Virus record (IMG/VR): IMGVR_UViG_3300037067_002413
Span: 32,001 to 96,000 of that record
From: a virus
Taxonomy: Duplodnaviria > Caudoviricetes
Strand: one strand, 5' to 3'
DNA length: 64,000 nt
The notes under the pieces are model-generated. The model saw nothing but the letters and a program-made list of their open reading frames with translations. It was not told where the DNA came from and ran no database searches. Positions 28,568 to 61,964 of this stretch are shown here, one piece after another. The position numbers and the translations under genes were made by a program. The number at the start of each line of letters is the position of its first letter. Position 1 is the stretch's first letter.

Positions 28568-28579
28568 CAAATGGAAAAT

Positions 28580-28652
28580 TGCACTGTAGTTCAGTTGGTA
28601 GAACACCGCACTGTTAATGCGATGGTCCCTGGTTCGAGTCCAGGCGGTGCAG
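28580..28652 (+). tRNA. tRNA-Asn(GTT)
   Basis: TGCACTG/CGGTGCA acceptor, GTTC/GAAC D stem, CTGTTAA anticodon loop, CCTGG-TTCGAGT-CCAGG T arm. Confidence 0.92.
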
Positions 28653-28656
28653 CTTG

Positions 28657-28721
28657 CGTCGGAAAGGATGGGGACTGCGGCTCTAGCCGTGATGGAGTGC
28701 CTCATCCGTCCGACGTTTTTT
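28657..28721 (+). terminator. Long hairpin with T-tract after tRNA-Asn
   Basis: CGTCGGA/TCCGACG plus GGATGGGG/CCTCATCC stems followed by TTTTTT. Confidence 0.5.
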
Positions 28722-28738
28722 CGTCTCCAAAGGTGACT

Positions 28739-29536
28739 ATGGAACGGCTTGCTCGATACGATGTTTATAATGTACCACTTGCTGATATTTGGATTGATCC
28801 AGATTTCAATTGCCGAAATGCCTTTACCTTCCAGTCTGTTAAGGGACTGGCGGATAACATCGAACAAACCGGACTTGAGATTCCAGTTATTCTTCAACGA
28901 CGAGAGGATAGTCAGATAGAATTTTCGGAACCATTCCGTTTGGTTGCCGGTTTTCGTCGTTTGGCAGCCGTGAAGACGTTTCTGCATTGGAATTCTATTC
29001 CTGCTAATGTTCGAGAAAACTTGAATGACCGAGCAGCAGAGATTCTAAATCTAACAGAGAATTTGGAACGCGAAGACCTCAATCCGCTGGAACAGGCACA
29101 AGCACTCACTCGTAGATTTCCGCCTGGAAGTTCGTTACGAACGATCGCTAAGGAGATGCACCGGGACGCGCATTGGGTACACCAACGCCTGCGGATTATG
29201 CAATTGCCAGAGGAGTTGCGTGAGAAGGTAGCGGCTAAGTTGCTCACACTCTTGGACGTAGACGTACTCGTGAAACTTCCACCAGAGGAGCAAATCGAGG
29301 CAGCCAAAGAAATTATTATTGCCAGAGGAAAGCGAACACGAAAACTCAACGTCAATCCGAAATTTCGGCGAAAGTTTAAGTATCGTCGTGGAAAGGAAGA
29401 GATCAATTTTAGAATTGGTCAACTGATGGAGGCGGGATTGAGTGGCCTCGTAACACGATTCGGTGCCTGGTGTGCGGGTTATATCAGTGATGACGAGTTC
29501 GATCAGGATATTTTGCAAGAAACACATAAAATATAG
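28739..29536 (+). CDS. ParB/Srx-domain protein 2
   Basis: LVAGFRRLAA, ENLEREDLNPLEQA, HTH; ATG 28739 after AAGG. Confidence 0.88.
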   Translation: MERLARYDVYNVPLADIWIDPDFNCRNAFTFQSVKGLADNIEQTGLEIPVILQRREDSQIEFSEPFRLVAGFRRLAAVKTFLHWNSIPANVRENLNDRAAEILNLTENLEREDLNPLEQAQALTRRFPPGSSLRTIAKEMHRDAHWVHQRLRIMQLPEELREKVAAKLLTLLDVDVLVKLPPEEQIEAAKEIIIARGKRTRKLNVNPKFRRKFKYRRGKEEINFRIGQLMEAGLSGLVTRFGAWCAGYISDDEFDQDILQETHKI

Positions 29537-29572
29537 ACCAGATTTCACCTATTTTTACGTCGTCCTATTAGA
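29534..29572 (+). promoter_or_regulatory. 39-bp repeated element (putative phage promoter), copy 1
   Basis: TAGACCAGATTTCACCTATTTTTACGTCGTCCTATTAGA identical to 54371-54409; ends at the first nucleotides of the Y RNA array. Confidence 0.7.
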
Positions 29573-29633
29573 GGGCCGATGTGGATGGGTTATCTTGGAA
29601 CGACTCCCCACCCGCACAAACTTGCCCTCTTTT
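29570..29633 (+). ncRNA. Y RNA 1 (free-standing)
   Basis: AGAGGGC-C-GA-TGTGGATGGG-TTATC...CCCACCCGCA-CAAAC-TT-GCCCTCT: bulged-C helix, second stem and UUAUC; upstream of Ro60. Confidence 0.85.
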
Positions 29634-29635
29634 AT

Positions 29636-29760
29636 GGATGCCGTAGTTCAGTTGGTAGAACACTAAAACCGCTGACCAACCTTTGCCCTGCAAGGGCCAA
29701 ATGGAAAGCGTTATCACCTGTTAAGTGAGAGGTCGCGGGTTCGAGTCCCGCCGGTATCCG
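29636..29760 (+). ncRNA. tRNA(Asn-derived)-Y RNA chimera A
   Basis: GGATGCCG/CGGTATCC acceptor, canonical D and T arms, CTGTTAA loop; 50-nt insert 29665-29714 folds as TTT-GCCCT/AGGGC-C-AAA...GCGTTAT(C). Confidence 0.8.
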
Positions 29761-29766
29761 TTTTAT

Positions 29767-29893
29767 GTACGTTGTAGCTCAGCGGTAGAGCACAAGTCAA
29801 AGAACCGCTTTCAAGTTTCTTGCCCTATGGGCCGAACTGAAAGCGTTATCAACAAGGAACTTGTGGTCGTGGGTTCGAGTCCCGCCAACGTGC
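29767..29893 (+). ncRNA. tRNA-Y RNA chimera B
   Basis: GTACGTTG/CAACGTGC acceptor; CAAGT/ACTTG anticodon stem whose loop is replaced by CGCTTTCA..TTGCCC-TAT-GGGC-C-GA..TGAAAGCG-TTATC. Confidence 0.8.
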
Positions 29894-29896
29894 TTT

Positions 29897-29993
29897 GGGT
29901 GTGAAGCTCAATTGGTTGAGCACCCGTTTTCACCATTAACTCGAAAGGGTCGAATGAAAATGGTTATCGTAGGTTCGAGTCCTATCGCACCCG
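29897..29993 (+). ncRNA. tRNA-Y RNA chimera C
   Basis: GGGTGTG/CGCACCC acceptor; anticodon arm replaced by CCGTTTTCA..ACTC-GAAA-GGGT-C-GA..TGAAAATGG; TTATC occupies the variable loop. Confidence 0.75.
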
Positions 29994-29995
29994 CT

Positions 29996-30059
29996 CCGGG
30001 CCGATGCTGATTGGTTATCACATCTTTATTGTCAAACACCAATCGCACACCTTGCCCGG
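29996..30059 (+). ncRNA. Y RNA 2 (free-standing)
   Basis: CCGGGC-C-GA-TGCTGATTGG-TTATC...CCAATCGCA-CACC-TT-GCCCGG. Confidence 0.85.
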
Positions 30060-30066
30060 CAATATA

Positions 30067-30159
30067 CTTGGACCGTGGAAGTTCGTTTATTGACGGCCAT
30101 TTCCGAAGTTGTACTTTAGAAATGGCCGCCCATAACGATTGTCCAACTTTTTGTCCAAG
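30067..30159 (+). ncRNA. Y RNA 3 (free-standing, extended internal hairpin)
   Basis: CTTGGAC-C-G-TGGA...TCCA..T-GTCCAAG; GTTTATT variant; CGGCCATTTC/GAAATGGCCG inner stem. Confidence 0.65.
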
Positions 30160-30168
30160 CCTTGGATA

Positions 30169-30245
30169 TTTGGGCCGTCGCTGAATCCGTTATCTATGTC
30201 ACTCATAATGACTCCAGTATCCCGGACCAGCACCTTTTGCCTGAG
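30169..30245 (+). ncRNA. Y RNA 4 (free-standing)
   Basis: TTTGGGC-C-G..GCTG..TCCG-TTATC...CGGA-C-CAGC-ACCTTTT-GCCTGAG. Confidence 0.75.
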
Positions 30246-30257
30246 TCATTGAATGTG

Positions 30258-30314
30258 TGGGCCGACGTTCGTGGGTTATCAGGCATAAGACACCCACGGC
30301 AATTTTCTAGCCTA
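30258..30314 (+). ncRNA. Y RNA 5 (free-standing)
   Basis: TGGGC-C-GA..TCGTGGG-TTATC...CCCACGG...GCCTA; ends just before the Ro60 RBS. Confidence 0.7.
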
Positions 30315-30329
30315 ACCTTTGGAGAAAAC

Positions 30330-31928
30330 ATGAAGACTTTAGCCAAGCACGTTTCAGTTCGGATTACTCCGCAGACTCGACCGATTCCTGGAAAGAATCA
30401 AGAGCAGAACAACGCAGGTGGGTATACGTTCGTTCTGGATTGTTGGGGACGACTTCAACGGTTTTTGATTCTCGGTTCCGAGGGCGGGACGTATTATGTC
30501 GGCGAACAAAAGTTGACGGAACAAAATGCGTCCGCCGTTGCTGAATGTGGTGAAGAAGACGCGGCCAAAGCCGTGGAGATGATCGCCTCGATCAGCGAAT
30601 CGGGCCGTGCTCCAAAGAATGATTCTGCTATTTTCGCCCTGGCACTTTTGGCGAGTCAGGCGGACGATACTGTTCGACGACTGGCATTGGCTGCGTTGCC
30701 GCGTGTTTGCCGCACGGCTACCCATTTGTTCCAATTCGTTGCGAACTGCAAGGAACTGCGCGGTTGGGGCCGTGGATTGCGTGAGGCGGTCGCCGGCTGG
30801 TACAACGAGAAGCCGGTTGACAAACTCGCCTATCAGGTGACGAAATACAGGAACCGTGCCGGCTACACGCATCGGGATATTCTCCGGCTTAGTCATCCGA
30901 AGACGGGCGATTACGAACGAAACAATCTATACCGTTGGATTACGAAGGGGACTCTCCCAGACGAAATCACGGTTGCGTTTAATCCGTTGGCTTTGATTTT
31001 TGGCTTGGAAGCAGCAAATGCTCTTTTGCCTACCGACGTGAAGGGGATGATCGGACTGATCGAACTTTACGGGTTGACTTTGGAGCATGTGCCCAATCAT
31101 TTCCTTAGCAGCCCGGCTGTATGGGAAGCCTTGCTTCCGAATCTGCCGCCCACGGCAATGATCCGAAATCTGGGTAAGATGACCAGCGTCGGCCTTCTGA
31201 AACCACTATCGGTATCTGCGAATATGGTTTGCAACGTGCTGACCAATCCCGATCGCCTTCGTGGTGCTCGCGTGCATCCACTATCCGTCTTGATTGCCAC
31301 CGACACATACAGTCAAGGCCACGGCGTCAAGGGGTCGCTGACATGGCAGCCGGTGGGACAAATCAGGGACGCCCTTGAGGAAGCATTTTATTCTGCCTTT
31401 GACGCCGTGGAGTTGACGGGTAAACGACATTTGTTGAGTCTGGATGTGTCCGGTTCGATGGGCTGGTCGTTACTTGCCAACACTAGATTGAGTGCTGCCA
31501 AGGCCGCCGCTTGCATGGCGATGGTTACGCATCGACTTGAGCCGCAAACTCATGTGATGGGTTTCTCCAACGATCTGGTTCCGATCGACATTTCCAAGAA
31601 GGAACGTCTCGATGCCTTGGTAACCAAGATTGGTCGTATTCCGATGGGCGGAACTGATTGTAGTCTGCCCATGCTCTACGCGGCTCAACAGAAGTTGGAC
31701 GTGGATGCCTTTGTGGTATACACGGATAACGAGACTTGGGGTGGGAAGATTCACCCCATTCAAGCTCTCAAGATTTACCGTCAAGCGAGCGGCATCAACG
31801 CCAAGTTGATTGTCGTCGGAATGACCGCCAGCCAGTTCACGATCGCCGATCCTTCTGATGCCGGCATGTTGGACGTTGTTGGTTTTGACGCTTCCTGCCC
31901 AGCCGTAATGGCTGATTTCGTTCGTTGA
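30330..31928 (+). CDS. rsr: Ro60 / TROVE-vWA RNA-binding protein (Rsr)
   Basis: NNAGGYTF, RFLILGSEGGTYY, GWGRGLR, KYRNRAGYTHRDILRLSHP, vWA DVSGSM, GGTDCSLPM, YTDNETW, MLDVVGFD; ATG 30330 after GGAGA. Confidence 0.97.
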   Translation: MKTLAKHVSVRITPQTRPIPGKNQEQNNAGGYTFVLDCWGRLQRFLILGSEGGTYYVGEQKLTEQNASAVAECGEEDAAKAVEMIASISESGRAPKNDSAIFALALLASQADDTVRRLALAALPRVCRTATHLFQFVANCKELRGWGRGLREAVAGWYNEKPVDKLAYQVTKYRNRAGYTHRDILRLSHPKTGDYERNNLYRWITKGTLPDEITVAFNPLALIFGLEAANALLPTDVKGMIGLIELYGLTLEHVPNHFLSSPAVWEALLPNLPPTAMIRNLGKMTSVGLLKPLSVSANMVCNVLTNPDRLRGARVHPLSVLIATDTYSQGHGVKGSLTWQPVGQIRDALEEAFYSAFDAVELTGKRHLLSLDVSGSMGWSLLANTRLSAAKAAACMAMVTHRLEPQTHVMGFSNDLVPIDISKKERLDALVTKIGRIPMGGTDCSLPMLYAAQQKLDVDAFVVYTDNETWGGKIHPIQALKIYRQASGINAKLIVVGMTASQFTIADPSDAGMLDVVGFDASCPAVMADFVR

Positions 31929-31932
31929 TTTA

Positions 31933-32066
31933 GCGGGGCTTCGGTGTGTGCAAAAGCACTGAACCTATAACCGCACGGTTGATGACTAGGACTGCCTCAG
32001 CCAGGCTGTAACGGTAACATACGCAATGGCAATGCGAACGCCGTGCGGAATATACCGAAGCCCCGC
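31933..32066 (+). ncRNA. Unassigned structured RNA immediately downstream of Ro60
   Basis: 17-bp closing stem GCGGGGCTTCGGTGTGT / ATATACCGAAGCCCCGC; inner CCGCACGG/CCGTGCGG stem. Confidence 0.55.
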
Positions 32067-32095
32067 GTTTTCTTAGAAGGCGAGTTGCACCGCTG

Positions 32096-38838: not shown

Positions 38839-39837
38839 ATGGATATTAAAGCAGAAGTGTTGATGCGCAACATGCCTGATGACACGTTACTGGAAAATGT
38901 TGAGTATGTACTTAGTAGGGCAGCGGCAGAGTGGCTTGACCTGGATCATCATCCACAGGATTTGGAAGTTCGAGTAAACACGAATGTCCCATTGCTTGGT
39001 CAAGCCTTGAACACGATAGAAAAAGGCGTTGATCTGAGACCGCCCCAGAAGGCTCCGATTTATGCAATCAGCGATTTGCACATGGGGGACGGTGGGCCTC
39101 GTGACAATTTTTCCTATTATGGATTACGCGAGAAGTATCTGATGTCCTTCCTCGATTTTGTTGAGGAGAATAACGGACAACTTGTGATCTGCGGCGACTT
39201 ATTCGAGTTGTGGCAGAGCAATATAAGCAAGGTACTGACGAAACGTATTTGGTTACTCGATCGTCTGGCAAGGATGCAGGCTATCTACATTCTTGGAAAT
39301 CACGACGCCGATCTTCGATATTTCCTTGGACAACCAGGTTGGCTTACGCATCCGTTCTTCGAGCGAATGTGCAACGGTTGTCATCTGAATCTTGGTGGCA
39401 AATCATTCGAGTTTATTCATGGGCACGAGGCTGATCCATATTGCGTCAGTGATACGCCGGGGTTGGGTCGAATAACAGCCATCTATTCTGGACTTGCCGA
39501 AGACCGCAACGGCGGCCCGATGTTCGATGAATATACCACAGTAGAACAGAAGGTAATTGGTCCTCTGGAGCGAGTCGTAAGCGTGTTGAATTGGTTTCGT
39601 GGAAAACCTGACCGATTCACAGAGATCAATCGCAATCTTCGAGACCTTTTGGTATCCGACGTTTTGATTTGCGGGCATACCCACCATCCTGGAAGAATTG
39701 CCGGTTGGCATTACAACTGTGGCACTTGGGCTGAGGAAACGAATAGTTTCCTTTGCATCCAGCGAGACGGCACCGTTGGCGCATTTGATTGGAAAAACAA
39801 TCAGGCAATTCCAAATGATTCGGAGCTTCCGATATGA
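38839..39837 (+). CDS. Calcineurin-like metallophosphoesterase (LpxH-like)
   Basis: ISDLHMG, GDLFE, GNHD, HGH, GHTH. Confidence 0.88.
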   Translation: MDIKAEVLMRNMPDDTLLENVEYVLSRAAAEWLDLDHHPQDLEVRVNTNVPLLGQALNTIEKGVDLRPPQKAPIYAISDLHMGDGGPRDNFSYYGLREKYLMSFLDFVEENNGQLVICGDLFELWQSNISKVLTKRIWLLDRLARMQAIYILGNHDADLRYFLGQPGWLTHPFFERMCNGCHLNLGGKSFEFIHGHEADPYCVSDTPGLGRITAIYSGLAEDRNGGPMFDEYTTVEQKVIGPLERVVSVLNWFRGKPDRFTEINRNLRDLLVSDVLICGHTHHPGRIAGWHYNCGTWAEETNSFLCIQRDGTVGAFDWKNNQAIPNDSELPI

Positions 39838-44092: not shown

Positions 44093-45181
44093 ATGTCTAA
44101 CGTATTTGTTGAATTGACCACGATCGACGAAGTGAAGCCGCATCCTAATGCGACCAAACTGGAAATCGCTGTAATCAAAGGTATCACTACCATCGTCGGC
44201 AAAGACGAGTTCCAGAAGGGTCAACGGGTTGTATTCTTCCCGCCTGGAATCTTGCTGCCGCCTGATATTGCTCAGTTGCTTGGAGTTCAGAAATACCTCA
44301 AGCACGCTGAATTTCCAGGGGATGCAGATCATCCGGCTGGCAAATGCCAGTGTCGAGTTGCAGCGTGCCGGCTTCGAGGTGCGCCAAGTTTTGGCTTTAT
44401 TATTCCTGCTCCATCCACGCTGGACGACACTGCCATTGGAACCGATGTCTCGTGCATGTGGGCAGCCCAAAAGTACGAACCGCCTGCTCGTTATTTCTTT
44501 GGTGATATTATGCCAGAGGACAATAGTTTCCACAAATACACCGACATTGAAAATTATTGGCGGTTCAACAATGCCATCCCTGACGGCACACCAGTACGAA
44601 TCACGGAAAAGATTCATGGAACGAACAGTCGAGTTGGTTTGATCGCCATGTACGACGGTGAGTTCGAGTTCATGGCGGGCAGTCATAAAACTCGCCGGAA
44701 GAAACCTGATGGCGAAAACACGTCCATTTACTGGCGACCGCTGGAAGATCGGTGTGTTCTTGATCTTCTGACGTACCTGTGCGATGAGAAGAATTCAGTG
44801 GTCGTCTTTGGCGAAATCTACGGAGTAGGCGTCCAGGATTTGGATTATGGCACCAAGGAGGGTTACGCGGTCTTTGACATCAGCGTCAACGGCAAATATC
44901 TGAACTGGGATCGGGTGAAAACCTTATGCGATTGGTACGGTGTAAAAACCGTCAATCTTCTTTATGAGGGACCATTCAGCAAAGATTTGGTGCAAGAACA
45001 CACCTATGGACCAACAACCATGATAGCACCCGAATTGATCGCCAGTCCGTTTAAGGGACGTGAAGGGTGCGTCATTACTCCGTTGGTTGAGCAGTTCTAC
45101 GCTCCGACCGGCGGTCGGCTGATTCTGAAAAGCGTCAGTGCTGACTACCTCGATCGGAAAGGTGCTCAGGATAACGAATGA
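44093..45181 (+). CDS. ATP-dependent RNA ligase, DRB0094 family
   Basis: N-terminal OB (I.EV.PHPNATKLE, RLRGAPSFG), TEKIHGTN, FGEIYG.GVQ, FDI, REGCVI, LKSVSADYL. Confidence 0.9.
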   Translation: MSNVFVELTTIDEVKPHPNATKLEIAVIKGITTIVGKDEFQKGQRVVFFPPGILLPPDIAQLLGVQKYLKHAEFPGDADHPAGKCQCRVAACRLRGAPSFGFIIPAPSTLDDTAIGTDVSCMWAAQKYEPPARYFFGDIMPEDNSFHKYTDIENYWRFNNAIPDGTPVRITEKIHGTNSRVGLIAMYDGEFEFMAGSHKTRRKKPDGENTSIYWRPLEDRCVLDLLTYLCDEKNSVVVFGEIYGVGVQDLDYGTKEGYAVFDISVNGKYLNWDRVKTLCDWYGVKTVNLLYEGPFSKDLVQEHTYGPTTMIAPELIASPFKGREGCVITPLVEQFYAPTGGRLILKSVSADYLDRKGAQDNE

Positions 45182-61602: not shown

Positions 61603-61608
61603 GTCGTT

Positions 61609-61706
61609 GTTTCTGTCGTCTAATGGCAAAAAGGCAACCAAAAGAATTATGCCTTTTAGGACACCGGCAGCGGTCGGTGATACAGGTTCGATTCCTGTCG
61701 GAAACA
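61609..61706 (+). ncRNA. Aberrant tRNA-like RNA (hairpin inserted in D loop, 4-nt anticodon loop)
   Basis: GTTTCTG/CGGAAAC acceptor; ACAGG-TTCGATT-CCTGT T arm; AAAAGGCA/TGCCTTTT insert; CCGGC-AGCG-GTCGG. Confidence 0.65.
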
Positions 61707-61888: not shown

Positions 61889-61964
61889 GGCCTCGTCTAA
61901 TTCTAAATGGTCAGGATACTGGACCTTCAATCCGGGGATGCGGGTTCGAGTCCCGCCGAGGCTA
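61889..61964 (+). tRNA. tRNA-Glu(TTC), C33 variant with atypical D arm
   Basis: GGCCTCG/CGAGGCT acceptor; CTGGA-CCTTCAA-TCCGG; GCGGG-TTCGAGT-CCCGC. Confidence 0.75.

What the first reader, a model, noticed from the sequence alone, without database searches (positions are those of the whole stretch)
29636..29993. tRNA-Y RNA chimeras: Ro-binding stem grafted into the anticodon arm of normally connected tRNAs
Seen: three consecutive units have their own paired acceptor stems at the 5'/3' ends, canonical D arms and GGTTCGAGTCC T arms. Where the anticodon arm should be there is a circularly permuted Y stem: 3' strand TTGCCC first, a short capping loop, then GGGC-C-GA...GTTATC. Known: in the described YrlA tRNA-mimic Y RNAs, the ends lie in the Ro-binding stem and the acceptor-like stem is closed by a loop. 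This is the opposite connectivity, and I am not aware of it being described. Inference: free acceptor ends could be matured by RNase P and CCA addition, and possibly aminoacylated. That would give tRNA bodies that carry Ro60, acting as decoys for anticodon nucleases or tRNA-targeting toxins, or as tethers to the translation or tRNA-repair machinery.
Basis: partly seen in the sequence, partly recalled or inferred. Interest (0 to 1): 0.95.

Follow-up and report, generated by a model that had tools for sequence, protein, structure and literature searches.

The report
tRNA-ordered Y RNAs beside phage Ro60
Just upstream of its Ro60 gene, a 146-kb environmental phage encodes three RNAs with a tRNA body and open tRNA-type ends that carry the Ro60-docking helix as a capped side arm; this is the known tRNA-mimic Y RNA (YrlA) in the reverse strand order, it is common in phages and several bacterial phyla, and I found no description of it in the papers I could search.

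Summary
Window 29636-29993 has three tandem units with a 7-8 bp acceptor stem made from their own 5' and 3' ends, a D arm and a T arm. Each also has a hairpin-capped Y module: UUGCCC, a 3-5 nt loop, GGGC-C-GA, a second helix, then UUAUC. They lie among free-standing mini Y RNAs, 337 nt upstream of a TROVE/vWA Ro60 gene.

Rfam calls units 2 and 3 tRNAs with 60- and 29-nt inserts. YrlA matches only across unit borders, far below threshold.

I found 95 distinct relatives beside Ro60 genes: 15 of 77 phage loci and 38 of 80 genome/MAG loci, including all 25 classifiable Myxococcota loci. Acceptor positions 1-7 pair in 97-100% with covariation. The Ro helix is capped by 3-4 nt loops, often GNRA or UUCG. 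C74 is kept in 72%. The layout tracks the Ro60 tree.

Unit 1 keeps an Asn-type anticodon hairpin and unit 2 keeps its anticodon stem, so the module is inserted rather than replacing the arm.

I read these as YrlA-type Ro60 partner RNAs in tRNA order. Maturation by RNase P and CCA addition is inferred, and function is untested.

This scan has reported the same layout on other DNA (at least 21 notes). I found no paper describing it.

The parts
28580..28653 (+). Ordinary tRNA-Asn(GTT). Its D-arm region is identical over 21 nt to unit 1, and it has the same CTGTTAA loop.
   Evidence: ARAGORN; Rfam 67 bits; 21-nt identity. A tRNA-Asn also accompanies the Ro locus in L003, L142 and L014.
29570..29632 (+). 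Free-standing mini Y RNA 1: GGGCCGA ... GGGTTATC ... CTTGCCC, ends in the Ro helix.
   Evidence: Sequence; fold -22.9 kcal/mol, z -2.4; sub-threshold match to the nematode sbRNA model.
29636..29760 (+). Unit 1: tRNA-ordered Y RNA. Acceptor 29636-29643 / 29752-29759, D arm 29646-29661, T arm 29735-29751.
   Evidence: Model R1 scores 148 bits.
29670..29713 (+). Unit 1 Y module: helix 2 (CGCT..CCA / TGG..AGCG), Ro helix TTTGCCC / GGGC[C]AAA capped by TGCAA, then TTA of TTATC.
   Evidence: Compensatory CCA/TGG to CCC/GGG in L003. Helix covariation.
29714..29728 (+). Unit 1 anticodon-like hairpin: TCAC-CTGTTAA-GTGA, followed by variable loop AGGTC.
   Evidence: The same kind of 7-nt loop occurs in 63 of 95 relatives.
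29767..29893 (+). Unit 2: tRNA-ordered Y RNA. The anticodon stem CAAGT/ACTTG is kept and the Y module sits in its loop.
   Evidence: Rfam tRNA 45 bits with a 60-nt insert; R1 70.5 bits; fold.
29806..29850 (+). Unit 2 Y module: helix 2 CGCTTTCA/TGAAAGCG, Ro helix TTGCCC / GGGC[C]GA capped by TAT, then TTATC.
29896..29993 (+). Unit 3: tRNA-ordered Y RNA. A 9-bp helix 2 takes the place of the anticodon stem and TTATC is the variable loop. The Ro helix is degenerate (ACTC-GAAA-GGGT[C]GA, 29939-29953).
   Evidence: Rfam tRNA 43 bits with a 29-nt insert; fold z -4.25; orthologue in L005.
29996..30062 (+). Free-standing mini Y RNA 2. It starts 5 nt after unit 3.
   Evidence: z -3.5.
30066..30160 (+). 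Y-like RNA with GGAC[C]G / TTGTCC ends and a long internal hairpin.
   Evidence: Fold -38.9 kcal/mol, z -7.4. The motif reading is my own.
30172..30245 (+). Probable Y RNA 3: GGGCCGT ... CCGTTATC ... TTTTGCC.
   Evidence: Motifs only. The fold of this stretch is not better than shuffles.
30255..30321 (+). Free-standing mini Y RNA 4.
   Evidence: Sub-threshold Rfam Y_RNA match, 19.5 bits; motifs.
30330..31928 (+). Ro60 orthologue, 532 aa.
   Evidence: Pfam vWA_Ro60 6.9e-67 and TROVE 6.6e-45.

Best explanation
Units 1-3 are Ro60 partner RNAs of the YrlA (tRNA-mimic Y RNA) lineage, encoded in ordinary tRNA order. The acceptor stem is made by the RNA's own two ends. The Ro60-docking helix is closed by a small loop and projects from the anticodon side of the tRNA body.

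Proposed mechanism:
1. Inferred: the roughly 760-nt stretch between the ParB-like gene and Ro60 is transcribed as one precursor.
2. Inferred from M. smegmatis YrlA and from the tRNA-like ends: host RNase P cuts 5' of each unit. Host 3' trimming and the host CCA-adding enzyme finish the 3' end. The same cuts release the abutting mini Y RNAs.
3. Inferred from motif conservation: phage Ro60 binds the bulged GGGC-C-GA/UUGCCC helix.
4. Speculative: the tRNA body, with or without its anticodon-like loop, is the effector end. It ties Ro60 to a tRNA-binding factor, or occupies one, during infection.

What is shown: the anatomy, its conservation and covariation, its linkage to Ro60, and its homology to YrlA by exact circular permutation.
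For: **Anatomy.**

**Family.** There are 95 distinct homologues. Acceptor positions 1-7 pair in 97-100%, with all pair types represented. That matches 127 ordinary tRNAs from the same loci.

**Covariation.** 93-94% of cells are paired, against about 40% when partners are slid. 33-34 of 35 pairs change on both sides. No shuffle of 500 reaches the observed value. Both alignments include the ordinary tRNAs that the model also matched; the acceptor figures are for chimeras alone.

**Ro helix.** It is 4-6 bp below the bulged C, and 71 of 89 loops are 3-4 nt. Of 47 tetraloops, 24 are GNRA or UNCG. GGGC/GCCC changes compensatorily to GGGT/ACCC.

**Homology to YrlA, segment by segment.**
- D arm, GCUAA(A/C)AC linker, helix 2, UUGCCC.
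- GGGCCGA, helix 2', GUUAYC, hairpin, GAGAGGUC, T arm.
- Both segments occur in both layouts.
- Each model hits the other layout only across unit borders: RF02553 at 28.7 bits on the window, and R1 at 39 bits across two tandem YrlAs of Gordonia phage Cashline.

**Linkage to Ro60.** Five chimera loci that the DNA pattern recovered and that have enough flank carry Ro60 within about 2 kb on the same strand; four of them (L095, L111, L128, L135) were not among the loci fetched through Ro60.

**Heritability.** The layout changes only 8 times on a 163-protein Ro60 tree, against a mean of 25.5 and a minimum of 21 in shuffles.

**tRNA-type 3' end.** C74 is kept in 72%.

**Co-transcription.** Spacers are 3-9 nt, and no promoter- or terminator-like site lies in the RNA array.

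[quoted passage not shown] Phage phiLo Ro60 binds CGAA-bearing hairpin RNAs and forms complexes with host PNPase.
Against: - There is no expression, end-mapping or binding data for any member, so maturation and Ro60 binding are inferred.
- Binding of Ro60 to a helix capped by a loop instead of free ends is untested.
- In the window, u1 has lost the G of the CGA motif and u3's helix is weak.
- In tandem arrays neighbouring units have similar acceptor strands. [quoted passage not shown]
- u1's 3' helix-2 strand pairs over 7 contiguous bp with u2's 5' strand.
- The large alignments were fitted to my model, which favours its structure.
- Class counts rest on a heuristic script.
- The phage encodes no CCA-adding enzyme, and the window units do not encode CCA.
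Confidence: 0.7

Rival explanations
1. The stretch is a tandem array of ordinary YrlA RNAs misread by one half-unit. Each real RNA would run from GGGCC of one unit, through its T arm, a closed acceptor hairpin made of neighbouring acceptor strands and the next D arm, to the next TTGCCC.
For: - RF02553 aligns this way at 29693-29829 (28.7 bits) and 29863-29923 (28.1 bits).
- u1's GAAAGCG pairs perfectly with u2's CGCTTTC.
- In arrays elsewhere the cross-unit acceptor pairing averages 5.8 of 7.
- Tandem YrlAs do exist, in Gordonia phage Cashline.
Against: - The scores are far below the threshold of 69.
- The array starts with a 5' acceptor strand and ends with a 3' acceptor strand, which would leave two orphan halves.
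- Own-end pairing is 8/8, 8/8 and 7/7. Cross pairing is 6/8 (three of them G-U) for u1-u2 and 3/8 for u2-u3 (counted by hand).
- In L003 u1's own helix 2 pairs at 8 of 9 positions, the cross-unit alternative at only 4.
- 48 of 96 chimeras have no neighbouring chimera within 400 nt.
- The Ro helix is capped by stable 3-4 nt loops rather than spacers.
Confidence: 0.07
2. They are decoding tRNA genes (Asn, Leu and others) interrupted by an intron-like or mobile insert. The insert is removed to give working tRNAs.
For: u1 is collinear with a class I tRNA apart from one insertion, and shares its D arm and loop with the phage tRNA-Asn.
Against: - From my own knowledge: no bacterial splicing system is known for 30-60 nt inserts. 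Bacterial tRNA introns are group I and far larger.
- The insert sits at three different places in u1, u2 and u3.
- It is a covarying, tetraloop-capped copy of the Ro-binding helix and is found beside Ro60.
- The phage already has an intact tRNA-Asn.
- u2 and u3 have no anticodon loop.
Confidence: 0.05
3. The tRNA-like bodies are only processing signals. RNase P and 3' nucleases recognise them to cut the mini Y RNAs out of the precursor, and the released tRNA-like pieces are by-products.
For: - Y1 ends 3 nt before u1 and Y2 begins 5 nt after u3.
- The same tight abutment (CTCC/CTTC then GGGCCGA) occurs in L003, L004, L005 and L008.
- No internal promoters or terminators.
- L008 keeps a u2-like tRNA body whose Ro hairpin has been deleted.
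Against: The embedded Y module is conserved, covaries and is capped in 89 of 95 members. That would not be maintained in a mere punctuation mark. Many chimeras are solitary. This role is compatible with the main explanation rather than exclusive of it.
Confidence: 0.13

Closest known systems
YrlA, the tRNA-like Y RNA of bacteria and mycobacteriophages (Rfam RF02553; Chen et al. 2014, PMC4201824; Wang et al. 2018, 10.1101/312249)
   Same: - Encoded next to Ro60 on the same strand.
- GNCGAA-type Ro motif.
- tRNA-like D and T arms.
- A stem-loop ('V') before the T arm.
- Collinear sequence blocks.
   Different: The strand order is rotated. In YrlA the ends lie in the Ro stem and the acceptor is a closed hairpin. 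Here the ends form the acceptor and the Ro stem is a closed hairpin. RF02553 does not detect the units (28.7 bits against a threshold of 69, and only across borders). Both strands of the Ro helix are recognisable here, as in animal Y RNAs and D. radiodurans Yrn1, unlike the Salmonella and M. smegmatis RNAs.
Processed M. smegmatis YrlA (Chen et al. 2014)
   Same: A Ro-bound tRNA mimic with a 7-bp acceptor, whose 5' end is made by RNase P and whose 3' end carries CCA.
   Different: That RNA becomes two pieces (82 and 65 nt) held together by pairing, with four ends. The phage units would be a single chain, because the Ro stem is closed.
D. radiodurans Yrn1
   Same: Animal-type two-stranded Ro helix, with D-then-T order relative to the 5' end.
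   Different: In Yrn1 the Ro stem takes the acceptor position and the ends lie in it. Its tRNA likeness is weak.
Circularly permuted tRNA genes of red algae and an archaeon (Soma 2007 and others, as cited by Wang 2018), and two-piece tmRNA from permuted genes (my own knowledge)
   Same: Natural circular permutation of a tRNA-shaped RNA gene.
   Different: Those are processed back into standard molecules. Here both orders appear to be end products in different lineages.
b7a-tRNA (Burroughs and Aravind 2016). I know it only from its citation in Wang 2018; the paper itself is not held.
   Same: A predicted tRNA-like RNA in normal tRNA form in RNA-repair neighbourhoods, said to lie beside Rsr occasionally.
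   Different: The citing text mentions no Ro-binding module. I could not check whether any b7a-tRNA is one of these RNAs.
Yrl1/Yrl2 of Thermus phage phiLo (PMC12135203)
   Same: Phage-encoded RNAs upstream of a phage Ro60, in which the CGAA motif sits in hairpins bound by the phage protein.
   Different: No tRNA body is described.

Membership tests
YrlA (RF02553) | Ro-binding motif of GNCGAA type on the 5' strand of a stem | tested here: met
   GGGCCGAA (u2), GGGTCGAA (u3), GGGCCAAA (u1, G to A). GGGCCG in most of the 95 relatives.
YrlA (RF02553) | tRNA-like D and T arms with the conserved tRNA residues | tested here: met
   The Rfam tRNA and YrlA alignments both align the D and T arms.
YrlA (RF02553) | Encoded within 4 kb of Ro60 on the same strand | tested here: met
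   The units end 337 nt upstream of Ro60. The same linkage holds in the pattern-found loci.
YrlA (RF02553) | Order 5' Ro strand, T arm, closed acceptor hairpin, D arm, 3' Ro strand, with the ends in the Ro stem | tested here: not met
   The order is acceptor 5', D, Ro 3' strand, loop, Ro 5' strand, T, acceptor 3'. Acceptor covariation across 95 members.
YrlA (RF02553) | Score at or above the Rfam gathering threshold (69 bits) | tested here: not met
   28.7 and 28.1 bits, both spanning two units.
YrlA (RF02553) | Bound by Ro60/Rsr | not testable with these tools
   Needs a pull-down or EMSA.
tRNA (RF00005) | Cloverleaf scoring above the gathering threshold (29 bits) | tested here: met
   u2 45 bits, u3 43 bits. 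u1 gets only a partial 25.4-bit match.
tRNA (RF00005) | 5-bp anticodon stem with a 7-nt loop directly after position 26 | tested here: not met
   u2 and u3 have no anticodon loop. u1 has a 4-bp stem and a 7-nt GUU loop, but displaced by a 50-nt insertion. Default ARAGORN calls none of the three.
tRNA (RF00005) | Aminoacylation and decoding | not testable with these tools
   Needs acid-urea gels or charging assays.
Animal-type Y RNA / sbRNA (RF00019, RF01656) | Bulged-C helix GG(U/G)C-C-GA / UUG(A/C)CC followed by a second helix and UUAUC | tested here: met
   Present in units 1-2 and in the free-standing Y RNAs.
Animal-type Y RNA / sbRNA (RF00019, RF01656) | The helix is formed by the RNA's 5' and 3' ends | tested here: not met
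   In units 1-3 it is closed by TGCAA, TAT or GAAA.
Ro60 / TROVE protein (the neighbour) | TROVE HEAT-repeat ring plus Ro60-type vWA domain | tested here: met
   PF05731 6.6e-45 and PF25045 6.9e-67.

The most novel reading that the evidence does not exclude
The tRNA-ordered form is the older design: a tRNA (often Asn-type) that acquired a Ro60-docking arm next to its anticodon arm. Classical YrlA then arose from tandem arrays of such genes by re-partition of the units. That is an alternative to the published dimeric-tRNA model.

The mature RNAs would carry CCA and display real anticodon-like loops of varied triplets. They would act as Ro60-tethered stand-ins for particular tRNAs, for example as decoys or sensors for anticodon nucleases, or as guides that bring Ro60 and its nuclease or ligase partners to tRNA-handling machinery. 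Some might even be aminoacylated.
Probability: 0.2. Interest if true: 0.85.

Novelty: new variant of a known kind. Interest (0 to 1): 0.7.

Why it matters
Y RNAs are the obligatory partners of Ro60, and the tRNA-mimic YrlA is the most conserved bacterial one. Its effector and its origin are both unknown.

- **A second layout.** A tRNA-ordered layout is at least as frequent as YrlA in the Ro60 loci sampled here. Current models and tRNA finders miss it or mislabel it as an intron-bearing tRNA.
- **A gap explained.** This may explain why few YrlAs were found in delta-proteobacteria (Chen 2014). All 25 classifiable Myxococcota loci here carry only the new form.
- **Origin.** It gives natural intermediates for the evolution of Y RNAs from tRNA.
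- **Testable biochemistry.** It predicts single-chain Ro60-bound RNAs with free CCA ends, and often an anticodon-like loop. That makes interaction with RNase P, the CCA enzyme, synthetases, EF-Tu or anticodon nucleases directly testable.
- **Phage biology.** It points to a Ro60-based way of handling host or phage tRNA during infection.

Tried and rejected
- **Sequencing runs.** No RNA holder is listed. The DNA occurs in landfill and groundwater metagenome runs that may be its source. Read laying was not used, because contigs cannot show RNA ends.
- **Cultured phages.** Six representatives that encode Ro60 were read: Gordonia Cashline and BlueNGold, Mycobacterium Catera, Streptomyces Comrade and Daubenski, Microbacterium Magritte. 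By eye, Cashline, Catera and Magritte carry closed-acceptor YrlAs. The script calls this layout in Cashline and Comrade only. None has the tRNA-ordered form, so I found no laboratory phage model.
- **DNA pattern scan of viral contigs.** Of 61 matching stretches, about 10 lie in real chimeras and the rest are chance.
- **D-stem and T-stem sequence conservation.** GCUC D stems are 68% in chimeras and 55% in tRNAs of the same loci, too small a difference to use.
- **G-1:C73 'histidine-like' eighth pair.** It is true of the window lineage, but only 28% of relatives have G:C there and 67% have any pair (58% in ordinary tRNAs). It is a lineage trait, not a family rule.
- **D-arm identity between u1 and tRNA-Asn.** The 21-nt identity is not kept in L003.
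- **Unsupervised RNAalifold on a MAFFT alignment.** It recovers the acceptor, D, T and the core of the Ro hairpin. It misses helix 2 because of alignment shifts.
- **Papers not held.** Sim and Wolin 2018, Sim et al. 2020, Burroughs and Aravind 2016, and the supplements of Chen 2014.
- **Host.** The best hint is one 137-kb contig binned with a Thermoguttaceae MAG (63% Ro60 identity). That is too weak to name a host.
- **Not used.** No protein fold or complex job was run, because the question concerns RNA.
Full report
**Setting.** The window is part of a 145,969-bp virus record that is rated complete. Between a ParB-like gene (28571-29536) and a Ro60 gene (30330-31928; TROVE 6.6e-45, Ro60-type vWA 6.9e-67) lie about 790 nt with no long ORF. 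This stretch is packed with one repeated motif set: GGGC-C-GA, a 7-10 bp helix, UUAUC, and the partner strand UUGCCC. Four or five copies are free-standing mini Y RNAs with their ends in the Ro helix (29570-29632, 29996-30062, 30066-30160, about 30172-30245, 30255-30321). Rfam gives them only sub-threshold matches to animal Y RNA and nematode sbRNA models. The finding concerns the three units between the first and second of these.

**Observation.** Each unit has an acceptor stem made by its own ends (8, 8 and 7 bp), a standard D arm and a GGTTCGAGTCC T arm. Each also has the Y module in rotated order: UUGCCC strand, a 3-5 nt cap, GGGC-C-GA strand, helix 2, UUAUC.
- Default ARAGORN calls none of them.
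- Rfam's tRNA model scores unit 2 at 45 bits and unit 3 at 43 bits, with 60- and 29-nt insertions.
- Each unit folds alone into the expected shape.

The junctions differ between units:
- In unit 3, helix 2 stands where the anticodon stem should be, and UUAUC is the variable loop.
- In unit 2 the module sits inside a retained 5-6 bp anticodon stem.
- In unit 1 the module is inserted between position 26 and a retained 4-bp stem. That stem carries the loop CUGUUAA and is followed by a canonical AGGUC variable loop. Apart from one insertion, unit 1 is collinear with the phage's own tRNA-Asn, with which it shares 21 identical D-arm bases.

**Is the tRNA order real, or a frame error in a YrlA array?** RF02553 shows the known order: Ro strand, T arm, closed acceptor hairpin, D arm, Ro strand. 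It matches the window only by bridging two units, at 28.7 and 28.1 bits against a threshold of 69. That reading would leave an orphan half-unit at each end of the array. It needs acceptor hairpins of 6/8 pairs (three of them G-U) and 3/8 pairs, where the units' own ends give 8/8, 8/8 and 7/7.

Relatives settle the question. In the closest phage (L003, 80% Ro60 identity) unit 1's own helix 2 has changed from CCA/TGG to CCC/GGG. The cross-unit alternative falls to 4 pairs there.

I built a covariance model from four unit-1 relatives and searched three sets of loci:
- 80 viral Ro60 loci;
- the loci found by a DNA pattern alone;
- 80 Ro60 loci from genome and MAG contigs.

This gave 95 distinct tRNA-ordered chimeras. 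Their features are:
- Acceptor positions 1-7 pair in 97-100% with every pair type represented, the same as 127 ordinary tRNAs from the same loci.
- All helices of the model covary. 93-94% of cells are paired, against about 40% after sliding partners, and no shuffle of 500 reaches the observed value.
- The helix below the bulged C is 4-6 bp.
- 71 of 89 caps are 3-4 nt, and 24 of 47 tetraloops are GNRA or UNCG. That is a signature of selection for a closed hairpin.
- Half of the chimeras (48 of 96) have no neighbouring chimera that could supply a missing half.

One caveat stands. Adjacent units in arrays tend to share acceptor sequences. [quoted passage not shown] Arrays are formally ambiguous, although co-transcriptional folding should favour the unit's own stem.

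**Relation to YrlA.** The two layouts are exact circular permutations at the level of sequence blocks.
- The first block is D arm, GCUAA(A/C)AC, helix 2 strand, UUGCCC.
- The second block is GGGCCGA, helix 2 strand, GUUAYC, a short hairpin, GAGAGGUC, T arm.

Both blocks occur in closed-acceptor YrlAs, for example in Gordonia phage Cashline, mycobacteriophage Catera and many IMG/VR phages. Both occur in the tRNA-ordered units.

A script that asks which partner the acceptor 3' strand has gave these counts:

| Loci | tRNA-ordered | Closed-acceptor |
|---|---|---|
| 77 viral | 15 | 16 |
| 80 genome/MAG | 38 | 18 |

On a FastTree of 163 Ro60 proteins the layout changes only 8 times, against 25.5 on average and never fewer than 21 with shuffled labels. 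So the layout is inherited, with a few switches. By phylum:
- Myxococcota: 25 loci with the new form only, none with the old.
- Verrucomicrobiota: 12 old, 1 new, 1 both.
- Gemmatimonadota: 4 new.

This fits the remark in Chen et al. 2014 that few YrlAs were found in delta-proteobacteria, and that hits overlapping annotated tandem tRNAs were discarded. Five chimera loci recovered by the DNA pattern and with enough flank carry Ro60 within about 2 kb on the same strand; four of them were not in the Ro60-fetched set.

**How it probably works.** The following are shown: the fold-level anatomy, its conservation, its linkage to Ro60, and its homology to YrlA. The remaining steps are inferred.

*One precursor.* All elements are on one strand, 3-9 nt apart, and no promoter- or terminator-like site lies within the RNA array.

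*tRNA-type maturation.*
- The units present the acceptor/T-arm minihelix that RNase P recognises.
- M. smegmatis YrlA, the one YrlA with a 7-bp acceptor, is cut by RNase P and receives CCA in vivo while bound to Rsr.
- Across the family C74 is kept in 72% of chimeras. In ordinary tRNAs of the same loci it is kept in about 86%, counted from the tabulated pairs.
- The three window units have G, T and C at position 74. The phage has no CCA enzyme, so the host's enzyme would be needed.
- The same cuts would free the abutting mini Y RNAs. Y2 starts 5 nt after unit 3, as in L003, L004, L005 and L008.

*Ro60 binding.* This follows from the animal-type bulged helix. It is also supported by the finding that a phage Ro60 binds CGAA-bearing hairpin RNAs and assembles with host PNPase.

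*Function of the tRNA end.* This is open.
- In 63 of 95 chimeras the hairpin after GUUAYC has a 7-nt loop with a Y32/U33/R37-like pattern and varied middle triplets, GUU being the most common. My loop picker favoured U33 and R37, so those percentages are somewhat inflated.
- Units within one array carry different loops.
- The same hairpin is the 'V' stem-loop of YrlA.
- Hughes et al. 2020 suggested that the YrlA tRNA domain might competitively inhibit an anticodon nuclease.
- The phage carries an Rnl-type RNA ligase 12 kb away (PF09414, 7e-19) and a metallophosphoesterase. These are not adjacent to Ro60.

I therefore treat a role in tRNA damage or decoy biology as a hypothesis only.

**Novelty.** Rfam 15 has no family with this topology. 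Full-text searches did not turn up a description. Nor did the key papers I could read: Chen 2014, Wang 2018, the phiLo Ro60 paper, the jumbo-phage survey and the 2026 tRNA-mimic preprint. Wang 2018 only raises the possibility that some YrlAs might be processed to resemble canonical tRNAs. Two reviews and Burroughs and Aravind 2016 (b7a-tRNA) are not held, so prior mention there cannot be excluded.

Earlier notes of this scan report the same layout in other genomes: giant viruses, cyanobacteria, crAss-like and T4-like phages, and a methanogen virus. I did not re-test those. They agree with the wide distribution I measured independently.

I class the finding as a new variant of a known kind. It is the YrlA/Y RNA system with a different, heritable connectivity.

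Noticed in passing
window 31929-32070: Directly after the Ro60 stop codon lies a very stable branched RNA-like structure: a closing stem of about 15 bp, MFE -61.5 kcal/mol, z -5.0 against shuffles. It has no Y motif and is not a simple terminator.
   Followed up: partly
window 61608-61706 and 61892-61961: Two odd tRNA-like elements far from the Ro locus. The first is 99 nt, with an 8-bp acceptor, a normal T arm, an aberrant D region and two extra hairpins (z -3.6). The second is a 70-nt weak tRNA match (32 bits) with a defective acceptor stem.
   Followed up: partly
window 28580-28653; L003:2315-2389; L142:2482-2555 (-); L014:2780-2852; L145:4307-4379: An ordinary tRNA-Asn(GTT) recurs beside Ro60 in unrelated phages, including Gordonia phage BlueNGold. 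GUU is also the most common triplet in the anticodon-like loops of the Y chimeras.
   Followed up: partly
L008:3750-3837: A unit-2-type tRNA body in which the Ro hairpin has been cleanly deleted. It keeps AGCGTTATC inside a 20-nt 'anticodon' loop and still abuts a mini Y RNA. This is a natural control for the function of the module.
   Followed up: no
L070:3256-3463, L072:3253-3459, L074:3071-3278: tRNA-ordered units of about 208 nt that appear to carry two Y modules in series between the D and T arms.
   Followed up: no
L153:4893-6538 and L157:4845-5534: Polyangiaceae MAG contigs with six and four tRNA-ordered Y RNAs in a row downstream of Ro60. Each has a different anticodon-like loop, and they are embedded in dense tRNA arrays.
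   Followed up: partly
window 30066-30160: A strongly folding element (z -7.4) with GGAC-C-G / TTGTCC ends and a duplicated TTGTCCAA 3' strand. It is probably a further Y RNA with a long hairpin as its effector loop.
   Followed up: partly
window 44093-45181 and 38839-39837: An Rnl-type RNA ligase (PF09414 with a PHA02142 OB fold) and a calcineurin-like phosphoesterase lie 8-14 kb downstream of Ro60. No RtcB search was made and no CCA-adding enzyme was found.
   Followed up: partly
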